Shown here: positions 3,259-36,503 of the stretch, in pieces
Layout: every line of letters starts with the position of its first letter
How positions within the stretch are numbered: the first letter of the stretch is position 1
NCBI GenBank assembly: GCA_035536775.1
Contig: DATLNM010000037.1
Location: forward strand, 28,526 to 92,525
Direction of reading: 5' to 3'
Origin: Actinomycetota bacterium
Lineage (GTDB): Bacteria; Actinomycetota; CADDZG01; WHSQ01
Length of the DNA: 64,000 nucleotides
Program-made: the position numbers and the translations under genes
The notes under the pieces: generated by a model
Database searches by the model: none
Seen by the model: the letters and a program-made list of their open reading frames with translations, nothing else
What the model was told of the DNA's origin: nothing

Positions 3259-4400
<1,142 letters not shown>

Positions 4401-9376: not shown

Positions 9377-10522
9377 TCAGGCAGCGGGTCGCACACGCTT
9401 GGTGGCCGCGAGGAGCGGCACCGTCAGCAGCGCCGGCCCGATCACCCACAGGGGTCTCATCACCCACCACAGCAGGCTGGGCTCCTCCGGGACGGCCCAG
9501 ACGAAGCGCATCAGTCCGTAGAACATGGCGAAACCGACGGTGTGCCAAAGAAACAGCGGCATGGCGTTGGCCGATAGCCACGCAACGAAGCGCTCCATCC
9601 CCGGACGTTCTGCGACGCGCAGGATGCGCTCGCGTTGCGCTACAACCAGGCCCACCTGAAACGTCAAGAGCGCCACGATGGGAAGTGTCGGCGGCCCCAT
9701 GTTCGAGAATCGGTCCACCGCCGAGGTCGTTCCCACCATCGACCGTGGATACAGCCCCATGTTGGTAAGCCCCACCAAACCTGCGAATCCGATCAGCATG
9801 AGCGCATGCCCAAAGCGCGCCGGCGCGTTGCGCAGACGCTCCCACGACCACCCGACCTGATGGGCCGCTCCCCACACAAAGACCATGTTGAACCATGCGA
9901 AGTGGGGCTGGCCGTAGCGGAAACGCACCAGATCGATCCCCATCGTCATCACCGCCAGCCCGATGGGGACGAGGTAACCCCAGCGCCGGTCGAGTCGGTC
10001 CCAGATGGGAACGGTGGCAACGAGAGCCATGTAGACGATCAGGAACCACAGAGGCGAAAGGACAAGAGTGACAGCGCGGGTTACCCATGGATCAGGCCCC
10101 TCGTGGAGGAATGCCGCGGCGGTCCCTACGCCGGCCACGACGCCTATCAACACCAGGGCCGGCACCCCGAGCTGTATCGCGCGCCGTTTGAGGAAGCTCG
10201 CCCACGCGCCCGGTTTACCCCGGTCGCGCGCCCATGCCCGCGCATGGACGAAGCCGCCGGCCACGAAGAAAAGCGGCATGACCTGCAGCACCCACGTGAG
10301 GCTCCACAACCCCGACACGTAGCCGATCGGGTTGTCGGCATGGGGACCGTCGGTCCGCCACACAAGGATCGTGAAGACCCAGTGCCACAGCACGACGGTT
10401 GTGGTGGCAAGTGAACGCAACAGATCCAGCAGTTCGTCGCGGCCTCCGCCGGGCTGCGCGGGCGGCAGCATCGTGGGGTGGGTCGGTTGCGCCGTCAACC
10501 GGGGCTCGCTCATGGTCTGCAC
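9377..10522 (-). CDS. Acyltransferase family 3 membrane protein
   Basis: 381 aa, about 10 TM segments. N-terminal DLLRSLATTTVVLWHW is typical of Acyl_transf_3. Confidence 0.8.
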   Translation of the reverse strand: MQTMSEPRLTAQPTHPTMLPPAQPGGGRDELLDLLRSLATTTVVLWHWVFTILVWRTDGPHADNPIGYVSGLWSLTWVLQVMPLFFVAGGFVHARAWARDRGKPGAWASFLKRRAIQLGVPALVLIGVVAGVGTAAAFLHEGPDPWVTRAVTLVLSPLWFLIVYMALVATVPIWDRLDRRWGYLVPIGLAVMTMGIDLVRFRYGQPHFAWFNMVFVWGAAHQVGWSWERLRNAPARFGHALMLIGFAGLVGLTNMGLYPRSMVGTTSAVDRFSNMGPPTLPIVALLTFQVGLVVAQRERILRVAERPGMERFVAWLSANAMPLFLWHTVGFAMFYGLMRFVWAVPEEPSLLWWVMRPLWVIGPALLTVPLLAATKRVRPAA

Positions 10523-28137: not shown

Positions 28138-28226
28138 GGAGGCGTGCCCGAGCGGCCGAAGGGAGCGCACTGCTAATGCGTTAAGGGGTGTAAACCCCTT
28201 CCGGGGTTCAAATCCCCGCGCCTCCG
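28138..28226 (+). tRNA. tRNA-Ser (anticodon GCU), long variable arm
   Basis: Acceptor GGAGGCG/CGCCTCC, anticodon stem-loop gcgca-CTGCTAA-tgcgt, T arm cgggg-ttcaaat-ccccg. Confidence 0.9.
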
Positions 28227-28280
28227 CGCTCATCGACAAGAACGGACGGCTGTTGATAGACGGTTAGAGTTCCACCGCAC

Positions 28281-28354
28281 GCGCCCGTAGCTCAGTGGAT
28301 TAGAGCGTCCGGCTACGGACCGGAAGGTCGGGGGTTCGAATCCCTCCGGGCGTA
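28281..28354 (+). tRNA. tRNA-Arg (anticodon ACG)
   Basis: Acceptor GCGCCCG/CGGGCGT (G1-U72), D arm gctc-agtggatta-gagc, anticodon stem-loop tccgg-CTACGGA-ccgga. Confidence 0.9.
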
Positions 28355-30111
28355 CTGTTGTTAGGACTTGCTACCTGACTCCAAGTAATACGCATCGCCG
28401 GGAATAGGACCTCAAACCAATGATGCTCTCCCCGATAGCGCGGCGGCACTTCGAAAGAAGCCTTGCCTGCCGAGTCAGATGCAGCTGCTCCCAGGTAGTG
28501 GTCATCCGCGTAGAACTGGATAGCGCGTCCCGTTATCGGAGACTCCGCGTCTGGATCCGTCAGTGTCGCCATCACTGTCCGGTCGGCTCCCGGTTTGCCT
28601 ACATCGATTGATGTGATCGTGTCCTCTTGTTCAACAACAAAGGGAGTGACCATCTCAGAGCCCGCGTATTCGGATGGCCCCCCCTCGTATCGCGCGGAAA
28701 GAACGTATGAGCCAGGGCGCTCCCAAAGAAACATCTGGCAGACCGCGATACCGGAAGAGTCAGTGATGCCCTGCTCGCTAAAGACTTCAGCACCTCCCTC
28801 AGTCCTGAGACTGAAGGTGATCGAAGCACCCTCTATGGGGTTCCCGTCCTCATCGACCAGACTCGCAGAAAAAGTCGCGGCATCCGAGAACTGAGCGGAG
28901 TTCGGAGATGCCTGCTCAAACTCCAGGGTGGTTTCAGTCGGCACAGTAGGAGCCGAGATGCCCGGTAGCGATCCATCCCATCGAAATACTCGGCCGTCTC
29001 GCGCCCCGAGATAGACCCGACCTTCGAGGAATCCAATGCTCCACGCGTCGTCCGGCACGGCTCCGATCCCCACGTAGTCACTCGGGCCAAGCTGGTCGAG
29101 GTCAACCTCACCGAATTCCATCGCCCCGTCCTGGAGGCGACGCAGAACGTAGGCAACCTCTCGTCCTGAATCATCCTTGCCTCCCGTAAGATCAACGGCT
29201 TGATCAACGATCGACAGCGCGTTCGACACCCCGTCGAAGCGCATCAACGTTCCCACTGATTCGGGGCGATCGCGACGACTAAAGAACTGGCGCGCGATGT
29301 AAACCGCTTCACCAGCGACCACCTCATCCCGATAGCTGGGACCAGGTGCGCCGAGCGATAGAGGAGAGGGCGCCCAGTCTTGACCGTCATAGGACCAAGA
29401 GAGTTGCCTCGTCTGGTCGGAGAACCAAACCTTCCCGTTCGCTTGGACGAACCCGTAGCCCAGCAAGGGGCTAACGACCTGCGTGGGGGGCTCGCAGGCC
29501 CACCGCCCCGCGAGTCCATCCCTGGTTCCCGCGACGACCTTCCCATCAAGGGGCCCACCGCATGAACTCAAAGAGCCCGTAGTGCCGAAGGCGCTTGCTG
29601 CAGCTGTCCCCACAAGGAAATAGTCATCAGGTCCGTGGCCGGCGACATCGAAGACGTGGGAAAGGCTGACACCGACGGACTCGCGATCGGCCCACGAGTC
29701 AGCTGTGCGAACCGCGAACTCGGGGCCTTCGACTCGCCCATGAGCATCGGCAAAGGGGGTGAAGAGTGACCCTCCAATGTTCTTGAAGAGGCCGATCTCC
29801 TCGGTGGCAGCAACGTGTTCGGTAACCCATTCGGACACGGAAGGGTCCCAAGCCGCGATCGTGATGGGCCCGGTGTTGGCCGCAAAGTCACCGTAACCGG
29901 CATAAAGGCGTCCCTCAAAACCTTCGAGGGTGTGGATCGTCCTTGCATGTTGCGTCGGTTGATCTGGCGCGGTCGGGTGGAGCGGAAGCAGGGTCCAAGA
30001 CTCCCCGGCGTGGGCAGCCGGGGGGCCTGGCACGATGCAGCTGAGAGTCAGAAAAGTCAGAACCAGCAGGGTCCGACACACGCCGCGGCGCATTCGCTTG
30101 GGAATCTTCAT
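28300..30111 (-). CDS. Secreted protein of unknown function: N-terminal propeller-like region plus two C-terminal Ig-like (invasin/Big-like) domains
   Basis: Signal peptide MKIPKRMRRGVCRTLLVLTFLTLSCIVPGPPAAHA. Ig-like repeats ATFSASLVDEDGNPIEGASITFSL...SGIAVC and VMATLTDPDAESPITGRAIQFYAD...GKASFEV. The last 55 nt are antisense to tRNA-Arg. Confidence 0.6.
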   Translation of the reverse strand: MKIPKRMRRGVCRTLLVLTFLTLSCIVPGPPAAHAGESWTLLPLHPTAPDQPTQHARTIHTLEGFEGRLYAGYGDFAANTGPITIAAWDPSVSEWVTEHVAATEEIGLFKNIGGSLFTPFADAHGRVEGPEFAVRTADSWADRESVGVSLSHVFDVAGHGPDDYFLVGTAAASAFGTTGSLSSCGGPLDGKVVAGTRDGLAGRWACEPPTQVVSPLLGYGFVQANGKVWFSDQTRQLSWSYDGQDWAPSPLSLGAPGPSYRDEVVAGEAVYIARQFFSRRDRPESVGTLMRFDGVSNALSIVDQAVDLTGGKDDSGREVAYVLRRLQDGAMEFGEVDLDQLGPSDYVGIGAVPDDAWSIGFLEGRVYLGARDGRVFRWDGSLPGISAPTVPTETTLEFEQASPNSAQFSDAATFSASLVDEDGNPIEGASITFSLRTEGGAEVFSEQGITDSSGIAVCQMFLWERPGSYVLSARYEGGPSEYAGSEMVTPFVVEQEDTITSIDVGKPGADRTVMATLTDPDAESPITGRAIQFYADDHYLGAAASDSAGKASFEVPPRYRGEHHWFEVLFPAMRITWSQVASPNNSTPGGIRTPDLPVRSRTL

Positions 30112-30151
30112 AGCCGTCTCGCTAACTCGCGCTATTCGAAATCTTCCGCCG

Positions 30152-30640
30152 CTAACGCCGGACTCCAGCCTTGTAGGTGAAGGTCGCGGCGACTCCGCCT
30201 GGAGGCGTCATCCCTCCATCAGCGAACATGCAAACGATCGCTTTCTCAGCGGTCCTGGGAACCAATCCCTTCTCACCCGCGGTATTGCGATCCGCGTACG
30301 TCCTGTTCGCCGGAGATGTGGACGGGTCCAGGTCGCCGAAGTCGTAGTAGAAAGTGATGTCGAGGTCAACAGTGCCTTGCCCCCCGGTCGGCTCGAGCAC
30401 GAAGCGCTTGTTCCAGGTAGCGGAGTCGATATCGAAGACGTAGCCCGTCACACCATTGATCGCACCATTCGATGCGATCGCCAACCTCCTAGCCAGACCT
30501 GGGTAGCACGTACCGTCCGGGTAGGTAGCCGATATAGCCACGCTGCCTTCGACTCTCTGACCTGTTTGTGCTGCCTGCGACGCCAACGGCACCAACGCAA
30601 CCACGGTGGCCAGCCCAACTGCGCTAAACATCCTTCTCAT
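30152..30640 (-). CDS. Small secreted protein, unknown function
   Basis: 162 aa with signal peptide MRRMFSAVGLATVVALVPLASQAA. No motif I recognise. Same strand as, and tightly spaced with, its flanking genes. Confidence 0.55.
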   Translation of the reverse strand: MRRMFSAVGLATVVALVPLASQAAQTGQRVEGSVAISATYPDGTCYPGLARRLAIASNGAINGVTGYVFDIDSATWNKRFVLEPTGGQGTVDLDITFYYDFGDLDPSTSPANRTYADRNTAGEKGLVPRTAEKAIVCMFADGGMTPPGGVAATFTYKAGVRR

Positions 30641-30682
30641 TTCAGCCTCCTGTCCGCACGGTCGCCCGCGCGTTACCGGCGA

Positions 30683-32356
30683 TCAACTGGGTGGCGTCTT
30701 GAAACGAGGGCCTCTGACCTGCACCGCGACGGAACCGCGGGATGAGAAGCCCTCCGAATCAGGAACCGGCTCCGGGCAACTCTCGAGGCAAAGATCCACG
30801 AATGAAACCCAGATCCGCCCGTCCATGGGACTCACTGCGATCCCAGCGTAGTCATACATACCTTCGGGAACCGATGGCTGAGCGCAGGACTGCTCCTGAA
30901 CACACCCATTCCAAGCTCTTTCGTAGCAGCGGTCGTCACAGGGGCCACGTTTCAGTGGATCGGAGGGCACATTTGCAAGTGCTGTCGCGAACACCGGCGA
31001 CTCGGAGAAGACGTCGAGCGATGTACCTATGTAACCGTTCCAGATCGCGTTCGCCTTGTCCTCATCCACAGCTTGATGACCCCCGGGGACGTTCGATGCG
31101 ACATAGAAGAAGGCGACTTGGCCCGGACGGCCTACGGAGATCGCAGGGTTGTTGGCGGCCGTGAGCCCGGGCAAGCTCGCGCGCATCGGTTCGCTCCACG
31201 TCTTGCCAGAATCGCGGCTGAACGCGAGTCTCGGGAGACTTTCCTCACCGAGCCAGACATAGTACGCGTTCCCCGCTTGGTCGACCACGATCTGACCATG
31301 GTTGGCGGAGAAAGGCCGGTCCACCCCAGGTCCTACTTCGACCTGTTCCCAGGCATCCCCGCCGTCATGGCTAACAGCAACGCGCGCCTTGCCCGCAACC
31401 GTACGAGGCACATAAAGGGTCCCGTGGACTGGTGACGCGGCGGCAAACCCAATCGTGTGTCCCGAGGGGCCGAGGTTGTCCGGATAAGGCAGAGCTGTGG
31501 GGGTCCACACCGAGCCACCGTTAGTGCTGCGCTTGCATCTGACAGATATCAAGCCGTTGTAGCAGAGATAGAGAACGGTTGGATAGCCGCTCGTGGTGAT
31601 TCCGGCAGGGGCGGGGCCCGAGAACAGAGTTGGTTTGTCGGTTCCGGGACCCTCGTCGCAGACGCGCGTGAAGTCCCAGGAGGCGCCGTCATCATCGGTC
31701 CAGTGGATGAGAGTGCAACCGCCTGTATAGACCCCGAAGAAGAACCGGCCCGCGATCCGATCGAGGTAGGTGATCGGGTCCCCGCCTTGGAGCGTCTCTG
31801 CGACCGCGATGGCTGGAAGCTTCCCAGCGATGTCTTCCCAGCTGTTCCCTTGGTCCTTACTTTGGAACAGGTAGAAACGCCGATCAACACCGAGAGCGTT
31901 CTCAGGGTAGGGCGCTCCGCGCGTATAGACGCTCGGGAAGTAGGCGGTGCCATCGGGGGCGAACCCGACCTGGGGTTCAACGGCCGGCCTGTCGGAAACG
32001 TAACGCTGCACGAAGCTCGGTAGGCCGCCCTTGAAAGCACTTCGTGGCAGGACGTTGTCGTGAGCGTCGTGAACAACTGCCGCTTGCGTCGGGACCGCGG
32101 TGGCCGGGGGTGCTTCCGGAGGGGGACCAGAATCTCGGGGTCCCACGTGCCACGGTGCCGCGAGCCGCAACTCGCCGCCGACCGAATAATGGGTTGGGCT
32201 GGAACCGTGGCCCAGGTTTGCCAATAGAAGAGTGCTGGCAAGAACACAGCGGATCGCTGTGCCAATGGATCGCTCAAGCACCGCTCGGCTGTTTGGCGGT
32301 TTGCTCACGCGCGCGCTGCCATCCGAATATCGCCGCTTAGAAATAGATGAGTGCAT
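30683..32356 (-). CDS. Secreted BNR/Asp-box repeat protein (sialidase-superfamily beta-propeller), Cys-rich C-terminus
   Basis: Five Asp-boxes: SKDQGNSW, TDDDGASW, STNGGSVW, SHDGGDAW, SRDSGKTW. N-terminal hydrophobic signal. Confidence 0.8.
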   Translation of the reverse strand: MHSSISKRRYSDGSARVSKPPNSRAVLERSIGTAIRCVLASTLLLANLGHGSSPTHYSVGGELRLAAPWHVGPRDSGPPPEAPPATAVPTQAAVVHDAHDNVLPRSAFKGGLPSFVQRYVSDRPAVEPQVGFAPDGTAYFPSVYTRGAPYPENALGVDRRFYLFQSKDQGNSWEDIAGKLPAIAVAETLQGGDPITYLDRIAGRFFFGVYTGGCTLIHWTDDDGASWDFTRVCDEGPGTDKPTLFSGPAPAGITTSGYPTVLYLCYNGLISVRCKRSTNGGSVWTPTALPYPDNLGPSGHTIGFAAASPVHGTLYVPRTVAGKARVAVSHDGGDAWEQVEVGPGVDRPFSANHGQIVVDQAGNAYYVWLGEESLPRLAFSRDSGKTWSEPMRASLPGLTAANNPAISVGRPGQVAFFYVASNVPGGHQAVDEDKANAIWNGYIGTSLDVFSESPVFATALANVPSDPLKRGPCDDRCYERAWNGCVQEQSCAQPSVPEGMYDYAGIAVSPMDGRIWVSFVDLCLESCPEPVPDSEGFSSRGSVAVQVRGPRFKTPPS

Positions 32357-32523
32357 CTGTGTGCTCCATTTGCAAGCCTGGTTGTCTGGCTCGGGATTTG
32401 CCCCTCCAGTTCCTGCTCCTCGCAGAGAGTTAGTTGGATGGGGGAAGAACCTCTCCCCCCGCCTAGGTAGGCGTATTTACGCCAATGGCATAAAGTACTG
32501 CCCAAAGGCGAGGAGGGGTAAGT

Positions 32524-33525
32524 GTGCTCACCGATCTAGGGCTCACCAGTGAAGAAGAGCAGCTCTACAGGTGGCTCCTTGGTCGCCTCGAACCGTCGAC
32601 GCCCGAGATGGCAGCATCCGCAAACTTGGATGCAAAGAGGCCACTAAGAACCTTCGAAAAACTGGAATCCAAGGGGTTGGTGTCGAGGCTTCCCTCAGAA
32701 GACCTCACTTTCAGTGCCGTCGCGCCCGACGTTGGTCTTGAACCCCTACTCCATTCCCGCACCCAAGAGCTGCTCGCCGTCAAATCCGAGATCGAGAGCT
32801 TGCAGGAGGATTACAGGAGGGCGGCTCGTCAAAGAAGCGAAGGCCTTCCAATACACCTTGTCCGAGGCGTCGACGCCGTTGCGATGGCACTCAGGCAAGT
32901 TGCGAATTCAGTGACCGAACAAATCCTTGTCCTTGACCGTCCCCCTTACGCGATCTATCGCAATCCCGAGCAACTGGAACATCTCGAGCGAGGTATTCGC
33001 TACAGAACTATCTATGACAGACAGGCTCTGGAGGATGAGGGCTACGTGGATTGGATCCTCACACTGGCCGCGGCGGGCGAACGCGCGCGCGTGCTGGACA
33101 AGATCCCCATGAAGATGATGCTTGTCGACAAGCGCAGGGCAATGCTTCCACTCGACCCCGGAAGGGGGCGGCCCGTCGATCAAGGGCTCATCGTCGAATC
33201 GCCTGAGGTCATCGAACTACTAAGTGCGACGTTCGAAAGCCTATGGTCCCGCGCTGTGCCGATGGAGGTGGCCGAACGAGGGGGGACTGAAGACGGAAGC
33301 GATTTAGGCCAGATGGAAACTCGGATCCTCATGATGATGTCGGCGGGAATAAAGGACCGCGCAATCGCTAATCAGCTCGGTGTGGGACATCGCACTGTCC
33401 AGAGGAAGATCCAGCAGCTGATGCAGCAGATGGGCGCCAGCACACGATTCCAAGCGGGAATTCAGGCAGCTCATCAGGGCTGGATCAAGCTGGATCAAGA
33501 GGGCAGCCACCGATCGCTGACGTGA
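32524..33525 (+). CDS. Transcriptional regulator with N-terminal TrmB-like wHTH and C-terminal LuxR-type HTH
   Basis: RBS gaggagggg then GTG. N-terminus LGLTSEEEQLYRWLLGR...LESKGLVSRL. C-terminus ETRILMMMSAGIKDRAIANQLGVGHRTVQRKIQQLMQQMGASTRFQAG. Confidence 0.8.
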   Translation: MLTDLGLTSEEEQLYRWLLGRLEPSTPEMAASANLDAKRPLRTFEKLESKGLVSRLPSEDLTFSAVAPDVGLEPLLHSRTQELLAVKSEIESLQEDYRRAARQRSEGLPIHLVRGVDAVAMALRQVANSVTEQILVLDRPPYAIYRNPEQLEHLERGIRYRTIYDRQALEDEGYVDWILTLAAAGERARVLDKIPMKMMLVDKRRAMLPLDPGRGRPVDQGLIVESPEVIELLSATFESLWSRAVPMEVAERGGTEDGSDLGQMETRILMMMSAGIKDRAIANQLGVGHRTVQRKIQQLMQQMGASTRFQAGIQAAHQGWIKLDQEGSHRSLT

Positions 33526-33608
33526 TGCCCAGGCCCCCTCCGGCGTACTGTTATCTCCAGAGTCGTTGAGTCGACGTCGGTGTGCCGCTCCGAGGGGGTA
33601 CCCAAGCC

Positions 33609-34280
33609 ATGGGAATCATGAGATCGCTTGCCGAGCAGCGATGGAAGCACATCGTCTCTCAAGCGGAGCCGTTCCTCCCCGAGGGGGACGAGGTCATCCT
33701 CTGGGTTCGGGCACGCCACCCCGGTCACCGCGGTGAGGGCTTCGCGTACCTCTCCTCGACTCGGTTCATATCGCTGCTGACCGGCCGCAACGGCTCCCAC
33801 AAAGTGGTCGAGCTCGAGAACATCGAGCGCTGGGGCGCCGATCACGAGGCCAAAGGCGGTCCTCTTCTTCGTATCGAGTCCGCCGACGACGAGGTCGTCA
33901 TCAAGATGCCCGTGGCGACTCCCGCCACCGCGATGAAGGTCAGGGACTTCCTTGCGAACTTCTCGCGCTCGGTGCCCAGCCCCCCCGGCGGACTGAGGCG
34001 CGCGGACGAGGAGTTCGTGATCGACGACGTGACGGTTCCGGTGTATCGGCGGTCCGTCGCCGATCAGACGAAGCGGATAGCGGTGACGACGATCGGGGCG
34101 ATCTTGGTCGTCGCGGGGATCCTCATCACTCCCCTTCCTGGCCCGTGGTCGTTCCCCATCATCTTCGCCGGCTTGGCGGTGCTGTCGTCCGAGTACGACT
34201 GGGCTCAGGACCTCAGGACTTGGGGGAAGCAGAAGTACACGCAGACGAAGAACCGTCTGACCCGGCGCCCGGCGGAGTGA
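33609..34280 (+). CDS. PGPGW-motif transmembrane protein (TIGR02611-like) with N-terminal soluble domain
   Basis: RBS gaggggg then ATG 33609. C-terminus ILITPLPGPWSFPIIFAGLAVLSSEYDWAQ. Confidence 0.7.
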   Translation: MGIMRSLAEQRWKHIVSQAEPFLPEGDEVILWVRARHPGHRGEGFAYLSSTRFISLLTGRNGSHKVVELENIERWGADHEAKGGPLLRIESADDEVVIKMPVATPATAMKVRDFLANFSRSVPSPPGGLRRADEEFVIDDVTVPVYRRSVADQTKRIAVTTIGAILVVAGILITPLPGPWSFPIIFAGLAVLSSEYDWAQDLRTWGKQKYTQTKNRLTRRPAE

Positions 34281-34762
34281 GCGCGGGAGCGCCAGGCGAC
34301 GAGCATTTCATGGCGGCCGCACTCGAGGAGGCAGCCGGCGCGCTCGGCCATGACGACGTCCCGATAGGCGCTGTGCTCGTGCGCGACGGCGCGATCGTCG
34401 CCAGGGCGCGCAACGAACGCGAGCTCGCGCAGGATCCGACCGCGCATGCGGAGATCATCGTGTTGCGACGCGCGTCGGAGGAGCTGCGCACGAGGCGTCT
34501 GGAGGGCTCGACGTTGTATGTCACTCTCGAGCCGTGCGCGATGTGCGCGGGAGCTCTCCTGCTCGCACGTGTCGATAGGCTCGTTTACGGCGCGTCCGAC
34601 CCGAGGGCGGGTGCCGCGTTCTCGCTCTACAACATCCCGCAGGACCCGCGGCTGAACCACTTCGTCGAGATCGAGCCGGGGGTCATGGCCGAGGATTCGG
34701 CGGTGCTGTTGAACGGATTCTTCGAACGCCGTCGCGCCGTCTCCGACGGAGGCAGCGGGTAG
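34277..34762 (+). CDS. tadA: tRNA adenosine(34) deaminase TadA
   Basis: GTG 34277 overlaps the upstream stop (GTGA). DEHFMAAALEEA..., HAEIIVLR, TLEPCAMCAGAL. Confidence 0.9.
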   Translation: MSAGAPGDEHFMAAALEEAAGALGHDDVPIGAVLVRDGAIVARARNERELAQDPTAHAEIIVLRRASEELRTRRLEGSTLYVTLEPCAMCAGALLLARVDRLVYGASDPRAGAAFSLYNIPQDPRLNHFVEIEPGVMAEDSAVLLNGFFERRRAVSDGGSG

Positions 34763-34797
34763 GCTTGCCCATCCCGGGCCGGGATCGGCCGGGACCT

Positions 34798-34885
34798 GGT
34801 GGGGTACCGAAGCGGCCATAACGGGATCGCCTCGAAAGCGATTGGGGGTTCACGCCCCCCGCGGGTTCAAATCCCGCCCCCACCG
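34798..34885 (+). tRNA. tRNA-Ser (anticodon CGA), long variable arm
   Basis: Acceptor GGTGGGG/CCCCACC, anticodon stem-loop atcgc-CTCGAAA-gcgat, T arm gcggg-ttcaaat-cccgc. Confidence 0.9.
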
Positions 34886-34903
34886 CCCAGCAGCCGCTCT
34901 CCG

Positions 34904-36415
34904 TCACCCTATGGGGGAGCAGGGAGCTCCACCTCTTTGGATCAGCGCAACCTGCCCGCGCTGAACGGTCATGCAACTGCGCTCGCCGTCGGGCCACGTC
35001 ACGACAACGTCGGCAACCGTCGACGTCCCGATCCCGAACAGCGTTCGGCCGGGACTCGACTGGCTGTGAAACACGACCTCGTCCGTCAGCTCGTCCGTCT
35101 GGACGATGCCATCAGCAGTCACTTCAACGTGCGCCCCGAGCCCCCATGGGTTCCACGACCCATCGGACACCTGCACGCCCACGGTAGCTCCCGCCGTGAC
35201 CTGGGCGAGCGCTATCGGCCGTGCAGCGTCTTCGAGGTAGCCGGCGGTCACGAGGACATCCGGGATGAGGTCACCGTCTAGGTCGCCGATCGTGGCGTCC
35301 TCCCCGTTGCCATTGGCAACGCGATGCAGCTTTGTCGGCGCGACGAATGCCCCGCCTGCTTGCTCGATAAGCAGATCCGGTCTGTCCGCGGCCTCCTCAC
35401 CGGCCGGATCGTCGAGGGGCGACCTGCCGGTCCGTCCTTGAACGACGACGATGTCCAAGTCGCCGTCGCTTCCGATGTCGATCCACTTCCCGGCGCGTCC
35501 GGCAGCGAGCCGCCACGTCGCTACCTCGACCAAGCTCTGCCCCTCGAGGTTGCGCAACACGGCGGCGCGCCGACGGCCAGTGACGAGGAGGTCCCCCCAG
35601 CCATCGCCGTCATAGTCGCCCCACGCTGCCGACAAGAGTTCGACGCCGCTCACCCCGTCGATCCGACGTGACGAGAAGCTCGCGTCGGTGTTCTCCAGAA
35701 AGACCGATCCGACGTAACCATGTCCGAGGACCACGAGGTCCGGATCGCCATCCCTGTCCCAGTCGGACCAACTCGAGCTGACTGTGCCCATCTCGAGGTC
35801 CACGCCCGCGTCGGCGATCTCGAAGCCGCCCCTCGTGTTCTGGAACATGACATTCGGGTGACCGCGTCTCTCCTCGTTTCCGACGAAGAGGTCGAGATCA
35901 CCATCCGAGTCGTAGTCCAGCCAGTTGATCGAGCGCCCCCGCCCCAATTCGTCCCGGACACCCCAGCGACGCGCGACATCCCTCAGCCCGCCGTCTTCTT
36001 GGAGCAGGAGCTGGTTGGGCCCGGTGCCCTCGCCACCCCGCGCACCTGAAACGCAATAGAGATCGGGCTCGGGATGGCCGTCGGCCTCGCCGAACGCGCA
36101 AGTGTGACGGTCGTAGTAGCTCTGGCCGCGGGGCGCGTCCTCCAAGGCCGGGTACCGGACCCGCCGCAAACCTCGCTCGGAGCCCAAGAACACCTTCGGT
36201 GACTTGAGATGCCGGCCGAGGAGGAGGTCGCTCCAACCGTCGGAGTCGATATCCGCGATGACTGCCCCCCAGGTCCTCGTGGGGCGACCTGCGATACCCC
36301 AATCGTCGGCGACCCTTCGGAAATGGCGTGTGCCGCCCCCCGAGGCAGGACCTGGCGGCAGCGCCATGAGGAGTGCCACTCCGGCGGCAACCAACCGTCC
36401 AACATTGATGCTCAT
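34904..36415 (-). CDS. Secreted FG-GAP/VCBS repeat protein with ASPIC/UnbV-like C-terminus (CRTAC1 family)
   Basis: Signal peptide MSINVGRLVAAGVALLMALPPGPASG. Repeated DxDxDGxxD motifs (DIDSDGWSDLLLG, DYDSDGDLDLFVGN, DWDRDGDPDLVV, DYDGDGWGDLLV, DIGSDGDLDIVVV). Confidence 0.85.
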   Translation of the reverse strand: MSINVGRLVAAGVALLMALPPGPASGGGTRHFRRVADDWGIAGRPTRTWGAVIADIDSDGWSDLLLGRHLKSPKVFLGSERGLRRVRYPALEDAPRGQSYYDRHTCAFGEADGHPEPDLYCVSGARGGEGTGPNQLLLQEDGGLRDVARRWGVRDELGRGRSINWLDYDSDGDLDLFVGNEERRGHPNVMFQNTRGGFEIADAGVDLEMGTVSSSWSDWDRDGDPDLVVLGHGYVGSVFLENTDASFSSRRIDGVSGVELLSAAWGDYDGDGWGDLLVTGRRRAAVLRNLEGQSLVEVATWRLAAGRAGKWIDIGSDGDLDIVVVQGRTGRSPLDDPAGEEAADRPDLLIEQAGGAFVAPTKLHRVANGNGEDATIGDLDGDLIPDVLVTAGYLEDAARPIALAQVTAGATVGVQVSDGSWNPWGLGAHVEVTADGIVQTDELTDEVVFHSQSSPGRTLFGIGTSTVADVVVTWPDGERSCMTVQRGQVALIQRGGAPCSPIG

Positions 36416-36418
36416 GAG

Positions 36419-36503
36419 CGGAGGCGAAGGGATTTGAACCCTTGGACCCTCTCAGGTCACACGATTTCCAGTCGTGCCGATTCGGCCGCTCTCGCACGCC
36501 TCC
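36419..36503 (-). tRNA. tRNA-Ser (anticodon GGA), long variable arm
   Basis: Reverse complement reads GGAGGCG...cacga-CTGGAAA-tcgtg...aaggg-ttcaaat-ccctt-CGCCTCC-G. A TAAACT -10 box lies 7 nt upstream of the 5' end. Confidence 0.9.

What the first reader, a model, noticed from the sequence alone, without database searches (positions are those of the whole stretch)
28300..33525. Lower-GC accessory module next to tRNA-Arg: three secreted proteins of unknown function plus a divergent TrmB/LuxR-type regulator
Three same-strand, tightly spaced genes sit between tRNA-Ser(GCU)/tRNA-Arg(ACG) and the PGPGW-tadA-tRNA-Ser(CGA) block:
- a 557-aa protein with five Asp-boxes (sialidase-type propeller) and a Cys-rich C-terminus (30683..32356)
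- a 162-aa secreted protein with no recognisable motif (30152..30640)
- a 603-aa propeller-like protein with two Ig-like domains (28300..30111)

A two-HTH regulator is transcribed divergently from a 167-nt spacer. That spacer contains the small inverted repeat GGCGTA-tt-TACGCC.

Hand counts of single 60-nt lines give 29/60 G+C at 28361-28420 and 34/60 at 30841-30900. A typical backbone line (3781-3840) gives 43/60. tadA and its substrate tRNA-Arg(ACG) end up on either side of the segment. No integrase or transposase is present. The function is unknown; the module looks like a regulated cell-surface or extracellular glycan- or polymer-targeting unit.
Basis: partly seen in the sequence, partly recalled or inferred. 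Interest (0 to 1): 0.6.

Follow-up and report, generated by a model that had tools for sequence, protein, structure and literature searches.

The report
Small gene islet beside tRNA-Arg
A 5.2-kb block of four genes (one regulator plus three secreted proteins of unknown function) was inserted right behind a tRNA-Arg gene in one uncultured actinobacterium. It is a real but fairly ordinary acquired genomic islet.

Summary
Bases 28356-33581 carry three co-directional secreted-protein genes and a divergent TrmB/LuxR regulator.

**Insertion.** In 13 same-family genomes the order is tRNA-Ser(GCU), tRNA-Arg(ACG), PGPGW, tadA. In most of them only 15-60 nt separate tRNA-Arg from PGPGW. None carries these genes there.

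**Composition.** The block is 60.3% GC against 64.4% for the genome (1.5th percentile). GC3 is 0.64-0.70 against a mean of 0.79. A 17/18-nt repeat of the tRNA-Arg 3' end flanks it (p about 0.002). No integrase is present.

**Second copy.** The same four genes occur together on one unrelated metagenome contig at 33-64% identity, so they form a conserved cassette.

**The proteins**
- The Asp-box protein belongs to a family with 14 paralogs in this genome. It lacks the FRIP motif and arginine triad of sialidases.
- The 162-aa protein is a jelly-roll with no significant structural match.
- The 603-aa protein is a 7/8-bladed propeller of a widespread family without a Pfam model, followed by two Ig-like domains. 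A frameshift makes its ORF run into the tRNA. The conserved C-terminus ends 5 nt past the tRNA.

Function stays inferred: a self-regulated extracellular binding or hydrolytic set. I rate it a new member of a known kind, of modest interest.

The parts
28281..28355 (+). tRNA-Arg(ACG), the insertion target; identical or differing at one base across 13 same-family genomes
   Evidence: ARAGORN; comparison of the relatives' genes
28343..28360 (+). Left direct repeat CCCTCCGGGCGTACTGTT: the last 13 nt of tRNA-Arg plus 5 nt downstream
   Evidence: Sequence. Local alignment against the right junction scores 15; 11 of 5000 shuffles and 34 of 20000 random genome 100-mers reach that score
28300..30111 (-). 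603-aa ORF: signal peptide, a 7/8-bladed beta-propeller of a family without a Pfam model (residues ~30-395), and two Ig-like domains. An apparent 1-nt frameshift near 28398-28402 lets the ORF run 56 nt into tRNA-Arg antisense. The conserved C-terminus (PGDAYYLESGSKS) is in another frame and stops at TAA 28361-28363
30152..30640 (-). 162-aa secreted jelly-roll protein; 8 family members in this genome; no Pfam, NCBIfam or PDB assignment
30683..32356 (-). 557-aa Asp-box (BNR) propeller with an N-terminal hydrophobic segment and a Cys-rich C-terminal part; one of 14 paralogs in this genome. The pipeline-called 442-aa start is probably too short
32357..32523 (.). 167-nt divergent promoter region with overlapping palindromes CGCCTA-GG-TAGGCG and GGCGTA-TT-TACGCC (32460-32483). 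This is the candidate operator
32524..33525 (+). 333-aa regulator: N-terminal TrmB winged helix, a middle domain of unknown function, and a C-terminal LuxR/GerE helix-turn-helix
33535..33551 (+). Right direct repeat CCCTCC-GGCGTACTGTT, starting 10 nt after the regulator's stop codon
33582..34762 (+). Backbone PGPGW membrane protein and tadA, which directly follow tRNA-Arg in relatives

Best explanation
Bases 28356-33581 are a horizontally acquired genomic islet that carries no integrase. It was inserted exactly at the 3' end of tRNA-Arg(ACG), between that tRNA and the PGPGW-tadA genes that follow it in related genomes.

**Integration.** A 17/18-nt duplication of the tRNA 3' end marks the two borders, as left by site-specific integration. 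The recombinase has since been lost or acted in trans.

**Cargo.** The cargo is a conserved four-gene cassette. A hybrid TrmB/LuxR regulator is inferred to bind the unique palindromic site in the 167-nt divergent promoter region. It would control its own gene and a three-gene operon of Sec-exported proteins:
- an Asp-box propeller with a conserved acidic/histidine set, which is a candidate hydrolase or binder but not a sialidase;
- a small jelly-roll protein;
- a second propeller carried on two Ig-like domains.

Together they most likely form an inducible extracellular unit that binds or degrades a polymer.

**Shown and inferred.** Shown here: the insertion, the composition, the repeat, conservation of the cassette, and the folds. 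Inferred: integration by a recombinase, operon control by the regulator, export, and the substrate class.
For: **Insertion**
- 13 of 13 same-family genomes have tRNA-Ser(GCU), tRNA-Arg(ACG), PGPGW and tadA in that order. In 10 of them no more than about 60 nt separate tRNA-Arg from PGPGW.
- The propeller domain of the 603-aa protein is found in 2 of 86 family genomes.

**Composition**
- GC is 60.3% against 64.4%, the 1.45th percentile.
- GC3 is 0.64-0.70 against 0.787; three of the four genes fall at the 0.5th-2.2nd percentile of length-matched genes.
- The genome's own paralogs of the 557-aa and 162-aa genes have GC3 of 0.71-0.86.

**Borders**
- The flanking repeat has p about 0.002.
- The native stop codon of the 603-aa gene lies 5 nt from the tRNA end.

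**Cassette**
- The same four genes, in the same order and orientation, are on contig L046. Identities are 33, 64, 60 and 48%, and that contig is also 60.3% GC.
- Regulators of this type sit divergently beside secreted Ig-domain proteins in two relatives. One of these also has a homolog of the 162-aa protein.
- The palindrome is unique in the genome.

**Folds.** The 162-aa model has pLDDT 84. The propeller model has pTM 0.83.
Against: - There is no integrase in the block, and no island-type integrase in the genome.
- The repeat is short and has one indel. Other insertions at this hot spot in relatives show no such repeat.
- The nearest sampled relative is distant: flanking proteins are about 57-60% identical. 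The time of acquisition is therefore open.
- The 603-aa gene carries an apparent frameshift.
- There is no expression data, no ligand and no substrate evidence.
- No structure or family match points to a specific activity.
Confidence: 0.6

Rival explanations
1. The block arrived without site-specific integration. It came either by homologous recombination through the highly conserved tRNA genes from a relative that already carried it, or by illegitimate recombination. On this reading the 17-nt repeat is chance.
For: - There is no integrase.
- The tRNA-Arg gene is identical or differs at one base across 13 same-family genomes.
- This tRNA cluster holds different cargo in several relatives, with no flanking repeats.
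- The p value of the repeat is only about 0.002 before correction for five junctions tested.
Against: - The repeat sits exactly at both borders and includes the tRNA 3' end, the classic attachment core.
- No other sampled genome has the cassette next to tRNA-Arg.
- The only other copy, on L046, has no tRNA beside it.
Confidence: 0.25
2. The block is ancestral at this site and was lost in all sampled relatives.
For: The closest relative is distant, so many events are possible.
Against: - It would need losses in 13 genera, most leaving a clean gap of 15-60 nt.
- GC3 is far below both the backbone and the genome's own paralogs.
- A repeat flanks the block.
- The 603-aa propeller domain is in 2 of 86 family genomes.
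Confidence: 0.05
3. The block is an assembly or binning chimera of the metagenome-assembled genome.
For: - The genome is a 54-contig MAG with 3.3% contamination.
- The conserved tRNA could cause a mis-join at the left border.
Against: - Syntenic backbone genes lie on both sides within one 139.7-kb contig.
- The right border has no long repeat that could cause a mis-join.
Confidence: 0.05
4. The cassette acts on proteins or on the cell envelope, for example as a partner or inhibitor of secreted proteases or as an adhesin set, rather than on glycans.
For: - In two relatives, regulators of this type sit beside S8 subtilases that carry the same Ig tandem. One of these also has a homolog of the 162-aa protein.
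- Two of 14 members of the 162-aa family show a faint PPC (pre-peptidase C-terminal) hit, E 0.036.
- The top fold hits include the furin P-domain and the lysozyme inhibitor PliG, at non-significant scores.
- The propeller family of the 603-aa protein is fused to cadherin-like, Laminin_G_3 and Ig domains in giant proteins.
Against: - There is no protease in this cassette.
- All the matches are weak.
- Known Asp-box propellers are mostly glycosidases (PMC2716378).
Confidence: 0.3

Closest known systems
tRNA-associated genomic islands and islets (general knowledge of the class; not cited from a paper read here)
   Same: - Inserted at the 3' end of a tRNA gene.
- Flanked by a short direct repeat of the tRNA end.
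- Atypical GC and codon use.
- Absent from relatives.
- Carries accessory secreted-protein genes.
   Different: - Only 5.2 kb.
- No integrase or other mobility gene.
- The repeat is short (17/18 nt) and imperfect.
GH33 bacterial sialidases (for example pneumococcal NanA, PDB 2w20)
   Same: Asp-box beta-propeller. The family profile matches Asp-box blades of these structures (E 2e-16). Pfam BNR_2 also hits.
   Different: - The matches are local and not colinear.
- No FRIP motif occurs in 18 family members.
- Only one arginine is invariant, where sialidases have a triad.
- A Cys-rich C-terminal part is present.
- Asp-boxes are structural and do not indicate function (PMC2716378).
TrmB-family sugar-responsive regulators and LuxR/GerE-type regulators
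   Same: N-terminal TrmB winged helix and C-terminal GerE helix-turn-helix, both above the Pfam cut-offs. The gene is divergent from the genes it presumably controls.
   Different: - Both DNA-binding domains sit in one 333-aa protein.
- The middle domain gives only weak DUF6879, DUF7436 and Regulator_TrmB hits.
- There is no receiver or autoinducer domain.
- The ligand is unknown.
Jelly-roll accessory domains (PPC, furin P-domain, CBM16, PliG)
   Same: The 162-aa protein is modelled as a beta-sandwich (pLDDT 84). It has a (D/N)LD(I/L) motif like those recalled from PPC domains (own knowledge).
   Different: - The best Foldseek E-value is 2e-3, with TM 0.36-0.46.
- PPC hits only 2 of 14 members, at E 0.036.
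- It is a stand-alone secreted protein rather than a domain of an enzyme.

Membership tests
tRNA-integrated genomic island | Insertion at the 3' end of a tRNA gene, absent in relatives | tested here: met
   Synteny in 13 genomes. The native stop codon lies 5 nt after the tRNA end.
tRNA-integrated genomic island | Flanking direct repeats that include the tRNA 3' end | tested here: met
   The 17/18-nt repeat at 28343-28360 and 33535-33551, p about 0.002.
tRNA-integrated genomic island | Own integrase next to the tRNA | tested here: not met
   No PF00589 match on the window's contig. The genome has only two full-length, Xer-sized tyrosine recombinases and one fragment.
tRNA-integrated genomic island | Atypical base composition and codon use | tested here: met
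GH33 sialidase | Asp-box repeats in a beta-propeller | tested here: met
   Four strict boxes plus one variant; BNR_2.
GH33 sialidase | N-terminal (F/Y)RIP motif and conserved arginine triad | tested here: not met
   No [FYWLIV]R[IVL]P in any of 18 members. R204 is the only invariant arginine; R470 is kept in 15 of 18.
GH33 sialidase | Colinear match to a solved catalytic domain | tested here: not met
   Profile matches to PDB sialidases are local and out of order.
TrmB family regulator | N-terminal TrmB winged-helix domain | tested here: met
   PF01978, 32.5 bits against a cut-off of 25.6.
TrmB family regulator | C-terminal sugar-binding effector domain (PF11495) | tested here: inconclusive
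   No hit in the window protein. The L046 ortholog scores 18.8 bits, below the cut-off of 22.2.
LuxR/GerE family | C-terminal GerE helix-turn-helix | tested here: met
   PF00196, 25.6 bits against a cut-off of 23.5.
PPC (pre-peptidase C-terminal) domain | Match to PF04151 | tested here: not met
   Only 2 of 14 family members match, at E 0.036. The window protein has no hit.
Bacterial Ig-like domains (Big_1 / Big_3_5) | Match above the Pfam cut-off | tested here: met
   43.2 and 39.8 bits at residues 401-487. The second domain is weak.

The most novel reading that the evidence does not exclude
The four genes could be a self-contained, mobile 'sense and secrete' cassette of a so far undescribed kind. 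It would combine a dual-HTH TrmB/LuxR sensor with two unrelated secreted propellers and a jelly-roll adaptor that assemble into one extracellular machine for a specific soil polymer. It would move between actinobacterial genomes by borrowing a host recombinase at tRNA 3' ends. A neighbouring gene in the same tRNA cluster also abuts a tRNA 3' end.
Probability: 0.1. Interest if true: 0.6.

Novelty: new member of a known kind. Interest (0 to 1): 0.3.

Why it matters
This is a clean, well-delimited example of how a tRNA cluster serves as an insertion hot spot in an uncultured actinobacterial family. It also splits tadA from its substrate tRNA-Arg(ACG), which are otherwise adjacent in that family.

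It points to three protein families that lack any functional or Pfam description:
- a widespread secreted propeller domain with the motif LYAGYGDYxANTGPI, found in about 800 clusters at 50% identity;
- a 162-aa jelly-roll family;
- an expanded Asp-box family that lacks the sialidase motifs, although some relatives are named 'sialidase family protein' in public annotation.

The cassette comes with its own regulator and a unique operator-like site, which makes it a tractable entry point for finding what these proteins do. Beyond that it is not surprising.

Tried and rejected
- **Sequence searches against solved structures.** All three secreted proteins gave nothing significant.
- **Fold searches.** The two models gave only generic jelly-roll and WD40/Kelch-type propeller matches.
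- **More copies of the cassette.** Patterns from the 603-aa protein found none in genome contigs or metagenome contigs. A scan with the Asp-box ortholog pair found only distant archaeal and Bacteroidota relatives. Only one other cassette, L046, is known.
- **Recurrent neighbourhood.** The 13 Asp-box and 7 jelly-roll paralogs elsewhere in this genome share no common neighbours. They lie close together only on contig C40.
- **Flanking repeats at other insertions.** None at four other junctions tested: the insertions at this hot spot in three relatives, and the orf503 insertion at tRNA-Ser(GGA) in the window.
- **Promoter scan.** No sigma-70-type promoter in the block. The scan covers only that promoter type.
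- **Naming the organism.** The cluster look-up returned no names.
- **Tool failures.** Two paper searches timed out.
- **Earlier scan notes.** Searches by sequence and by words added nothing on the cassette.
Full report
**What is there**

| Feature | Coordinates | Strand |
|---|---|---|
| tRNA-Ser(GCU) | 28138-28227 | + |
| tRNA-Arg(ACG) | 28281-28355 | + |
| 603-aa ORF | 28300-30111 | - |
| 162-aa ORF | 30152-30640 | - |
| 557-aa ORF | 30683-32356 | - |
| Spacer (167 nt) | 32357-32523 | . |
| 333-aa regulator | 32524-33525 | + |
| PGPGW protein | 33582-34280 | + |
| tadA | to 34762 | + |
| tRNA-Ser(CGA) | 34797-34889 | + |

Pfam and NCBIfam results:
- The 557-aa protein hits BNR_2.
- The 603-aa protein hits Big_1 and Big_3_5.
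- The 162-aa protein hits nothing.
- The regulator hits TrmB and GerE, both above their cut-offs.
- The two backbone genes are a PGPGW protein and TadA.

The window is contig C37:28526-92525 of a 2.6-Mb, 54-contig MAG. I could not name it further.

**Is it an insertion?**

The antisense tRNA-Arg tail of the 603-aa ORF served as a handle to locate tRNA-Arg(ACG) in 13 same-family genomes. All 13 share this order:
1. glucose/sorbosone dehydrogenase
2. tRNA-Ser(GCU)
3. tRNA-Arg(ACG)
4. PGPGW
5. tadA
6. tRNA-Ser(CGA)
7. tRNA-Ser(GGA)
8. dnaX

In ten of them no more than about 60 nt separate tRNA-Arg from PGPGW. None has a homolog of the four genes at this site.

Other cargo occupies the same cluster in some relatives:
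- The same-genus genome has a 1.6-kb segment here with a GT2 glycosyltransferase.
- Another genome has a 1.4-kb segment of unknown function.
- Others carry insertions between the two upstream tRNAs: an S15 peptidase in one, and cox genes in another.

The tRNA cluster is therefore an insertion hot spot, and 28356-33581 is one such insertion. Across 86 genomes of the family, the propeller domain of the 603-aa protein occurs only here and, at 39% identity, in one other genome.

**Composition**
- The insert is 60.3% GC against 64.4% for the genome. The SD is 1.5% for same-size windows, which puts the insert at the 1.45th percentile.
- GC3 of the four genes is 0.64, 0.70, 0.68 and 0.65. The genome mean is 0.787, and the flanking genes are at 0.78-0.84.
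- Against length-matched genes, three of the four fall at the 0.5th-2.2nd percentile for GC3. All four fall at the 85th-99th percentile for codon-usage distance.
- Only four loci in the genome have four consecutive genes with GC3 below 0.70.
- The genome's own paralogs of the 557-aa and 162-aa genes have GC3 of 0.71-0.86. The deviation therefore belongs to this copy, not to the families.

**Borders**

The left border reads ...CCCTCCGGGCGTAC|TGTT... and contains the end of tRNA-Arg. The right border, 10 nt after the regulator's stop, reads CCCTCC-GGCGTACTGTT. A local alignment of the two junction windows scores 15. That score is reached by 11 of 5000 shuffles and by 34 of 20000 random genome segments.

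This is the signature of integration into a tRNA 3' end. It is short, however, and four other junctions tested (the hot-spot insertions of three relatives and the orf503 insertion in the window) show nothing similar.

No tyrosine recombinase lies on the window's contig. The genome has two full-length, Xer-sized ones and one fragment.

**The 603-aa ORF is frameshifted**

Its ortholog on contig L046 ends ...FAGDDFYLPSDASKAT. In the window the matching ...PGDAYYLESGSKS* lies in a different frame and stops at TAA 28361-28363, which is 5 nt beyond the tRNA.

The shift falls near a short C/G run at 28398-28402. The ORF as listed then reads through junk and the antisense of the tRNA.

**A conserved cassette**

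The closest homolog of the 162-aa protein (60% identity) lies on a 5.5-kb Logan contig, L046. That contig carries the same four genes in the same order and orientation:

| Gene | Identity to window copy |
|---|---|
| Regulator | 33% |
| Asp-box protein | 64% |
| Jelly-roll protein | 60% |
| Propeller-Ig protein | 48% |

L046 is also 60.3% GC and has no tRNA. No other copy turned up in the genome or metagenome collections.

Regulators of the same architecture sit divergently beside secreted S8 subtilases carrying the same Ig tandem in two relatives. In one of them a homolog of the 162-aa protein lies between the two.

**The proteins**

*The 557-aa Asp-box protein*
- It belongs to a family with 14 copies in this genome and up to 14 in relatives. 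The copies are about 30-40% identical and scattered singly.
- Some members are named 'sialidase family protein' in public databases.
- A family profile hits PDB sialidases and GH74 xyloglucanases only through Asp-box blades, out of order.
- None of 18 members has a FRIP-like motif, and only one arginine is invariant. The conserved non-Asp-box residues are acidic or histidine: E127, D193, D199, D240/H241, H300, D466, D502 and D521.
- Asp-boxes are structural and occur in propellers with a wide range of functions (PMC2716378).
- The N-terminal 115 residues are conserved in the ortholog, so the longer start with its hydrophobic segment is the likely one.

*The 162-aa protein*
- It has a signal peptide and a jelly-roll fold (AlphaFold2 pLDDT 84).
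- It has no significant structural neighbour, and only a faint PPC hint.

*The 603-aa protein, N-terminal domain*
- The domain belongs to a family of 797 clusters at 50% identity, with the motif LYAGYGDYxANTGPI and no Pfam model.
- Family members are often stand-alone secreted proteins of about 340-400 aa. Others are fused to Laminin_G_3, cadherin-like or Ig domains.
- It models as a 7/8-bladed propeller (pTM 0.83) with only generic neighbours.

**Regulation**

The spacer holds overlapping palindromes at 32460-32483. The exact 14-mer GGCGTATTTACGCC occurs once in the whole genome. Binding and the ligand are untested.

**Verdict**

The finding is a real, well-delimited accessory islet that carries a conserved, self-regulated cassette of secreted proteins. 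The mechanism of arrival is probably site-specific integration at the tRNA, with the integrase gone. The function is most likely inducible extracellular binding or hydrolysis of a polymer. Both are inferences. The element is a new member of a known kind and of modest interest.

Noticed in passing
window 34904-36503: A 503-aa FG-GAP/ASPIC secreted protein gene lies between tRNA-Ser(CGA) and tRNA-Ser(GGA), starting 3 nt after the 3' end of tRNA-Ser(GGA). That tRNA is inverted relative to tRNA-Ser(CGA) here, whereas the two are co-directional in 12 of 13 relatives. The gene has no homolog at this site in any of the 13. This is a second rearrangement in the same tRNA cluster, with normal GC3 (0.78).
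   Followed up: partly
L039 (genome G022) 9992-10220: Three tandem 75-nt units, each starting with the last 14-16 nt of tRNA-Arg(ACG). They lie between the tRNA and PGPGW and hint at repeated recombination at this tRNA end.
   Followed up: no
L033, L034, L038 (genomes G001, G007, G011): The same tRNA cluster carries different cargo in relatives: a GT2 glycosyltransferase plus a small membrane protein, cox1/cox3 plus CtaG, and an S15 peptidase plus an unknown 434-aa protein.
   Followed up: partly
window 28930-30024 and loci L059-L073: The N-terminal propeller of the 603-aa protein defines a widespread secreted domain family without a Pfam model. It has 797 clusters at 50% identity and the motif LYAGYGDYxANTGPI.
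   Followed up: partly
L047 538-6558: A Logan contig carries four tandem paralogs of the Asp-box family. In this genome the 13 other paralogs are scattered singly.
   Followed up: no
genome contigs C14:49630-53116, C14:63062-66516, C37:101608-122987 (outside the window): These are the only other runs of four or more genes with GC3 below 0.70. The first holds a 148-aa paralog of the regulator's LuxR helix-turn-helix. The third is a low-GC3 region of about 21 kb just beyond the window.
   Followed up: no
window 34145-34291: The longest tadA ORF overlaps the end of PGPGW by 136 nt. TadA homology starts near residue 52, so the real start is probably downstream, around 34292.
   Followed up: no
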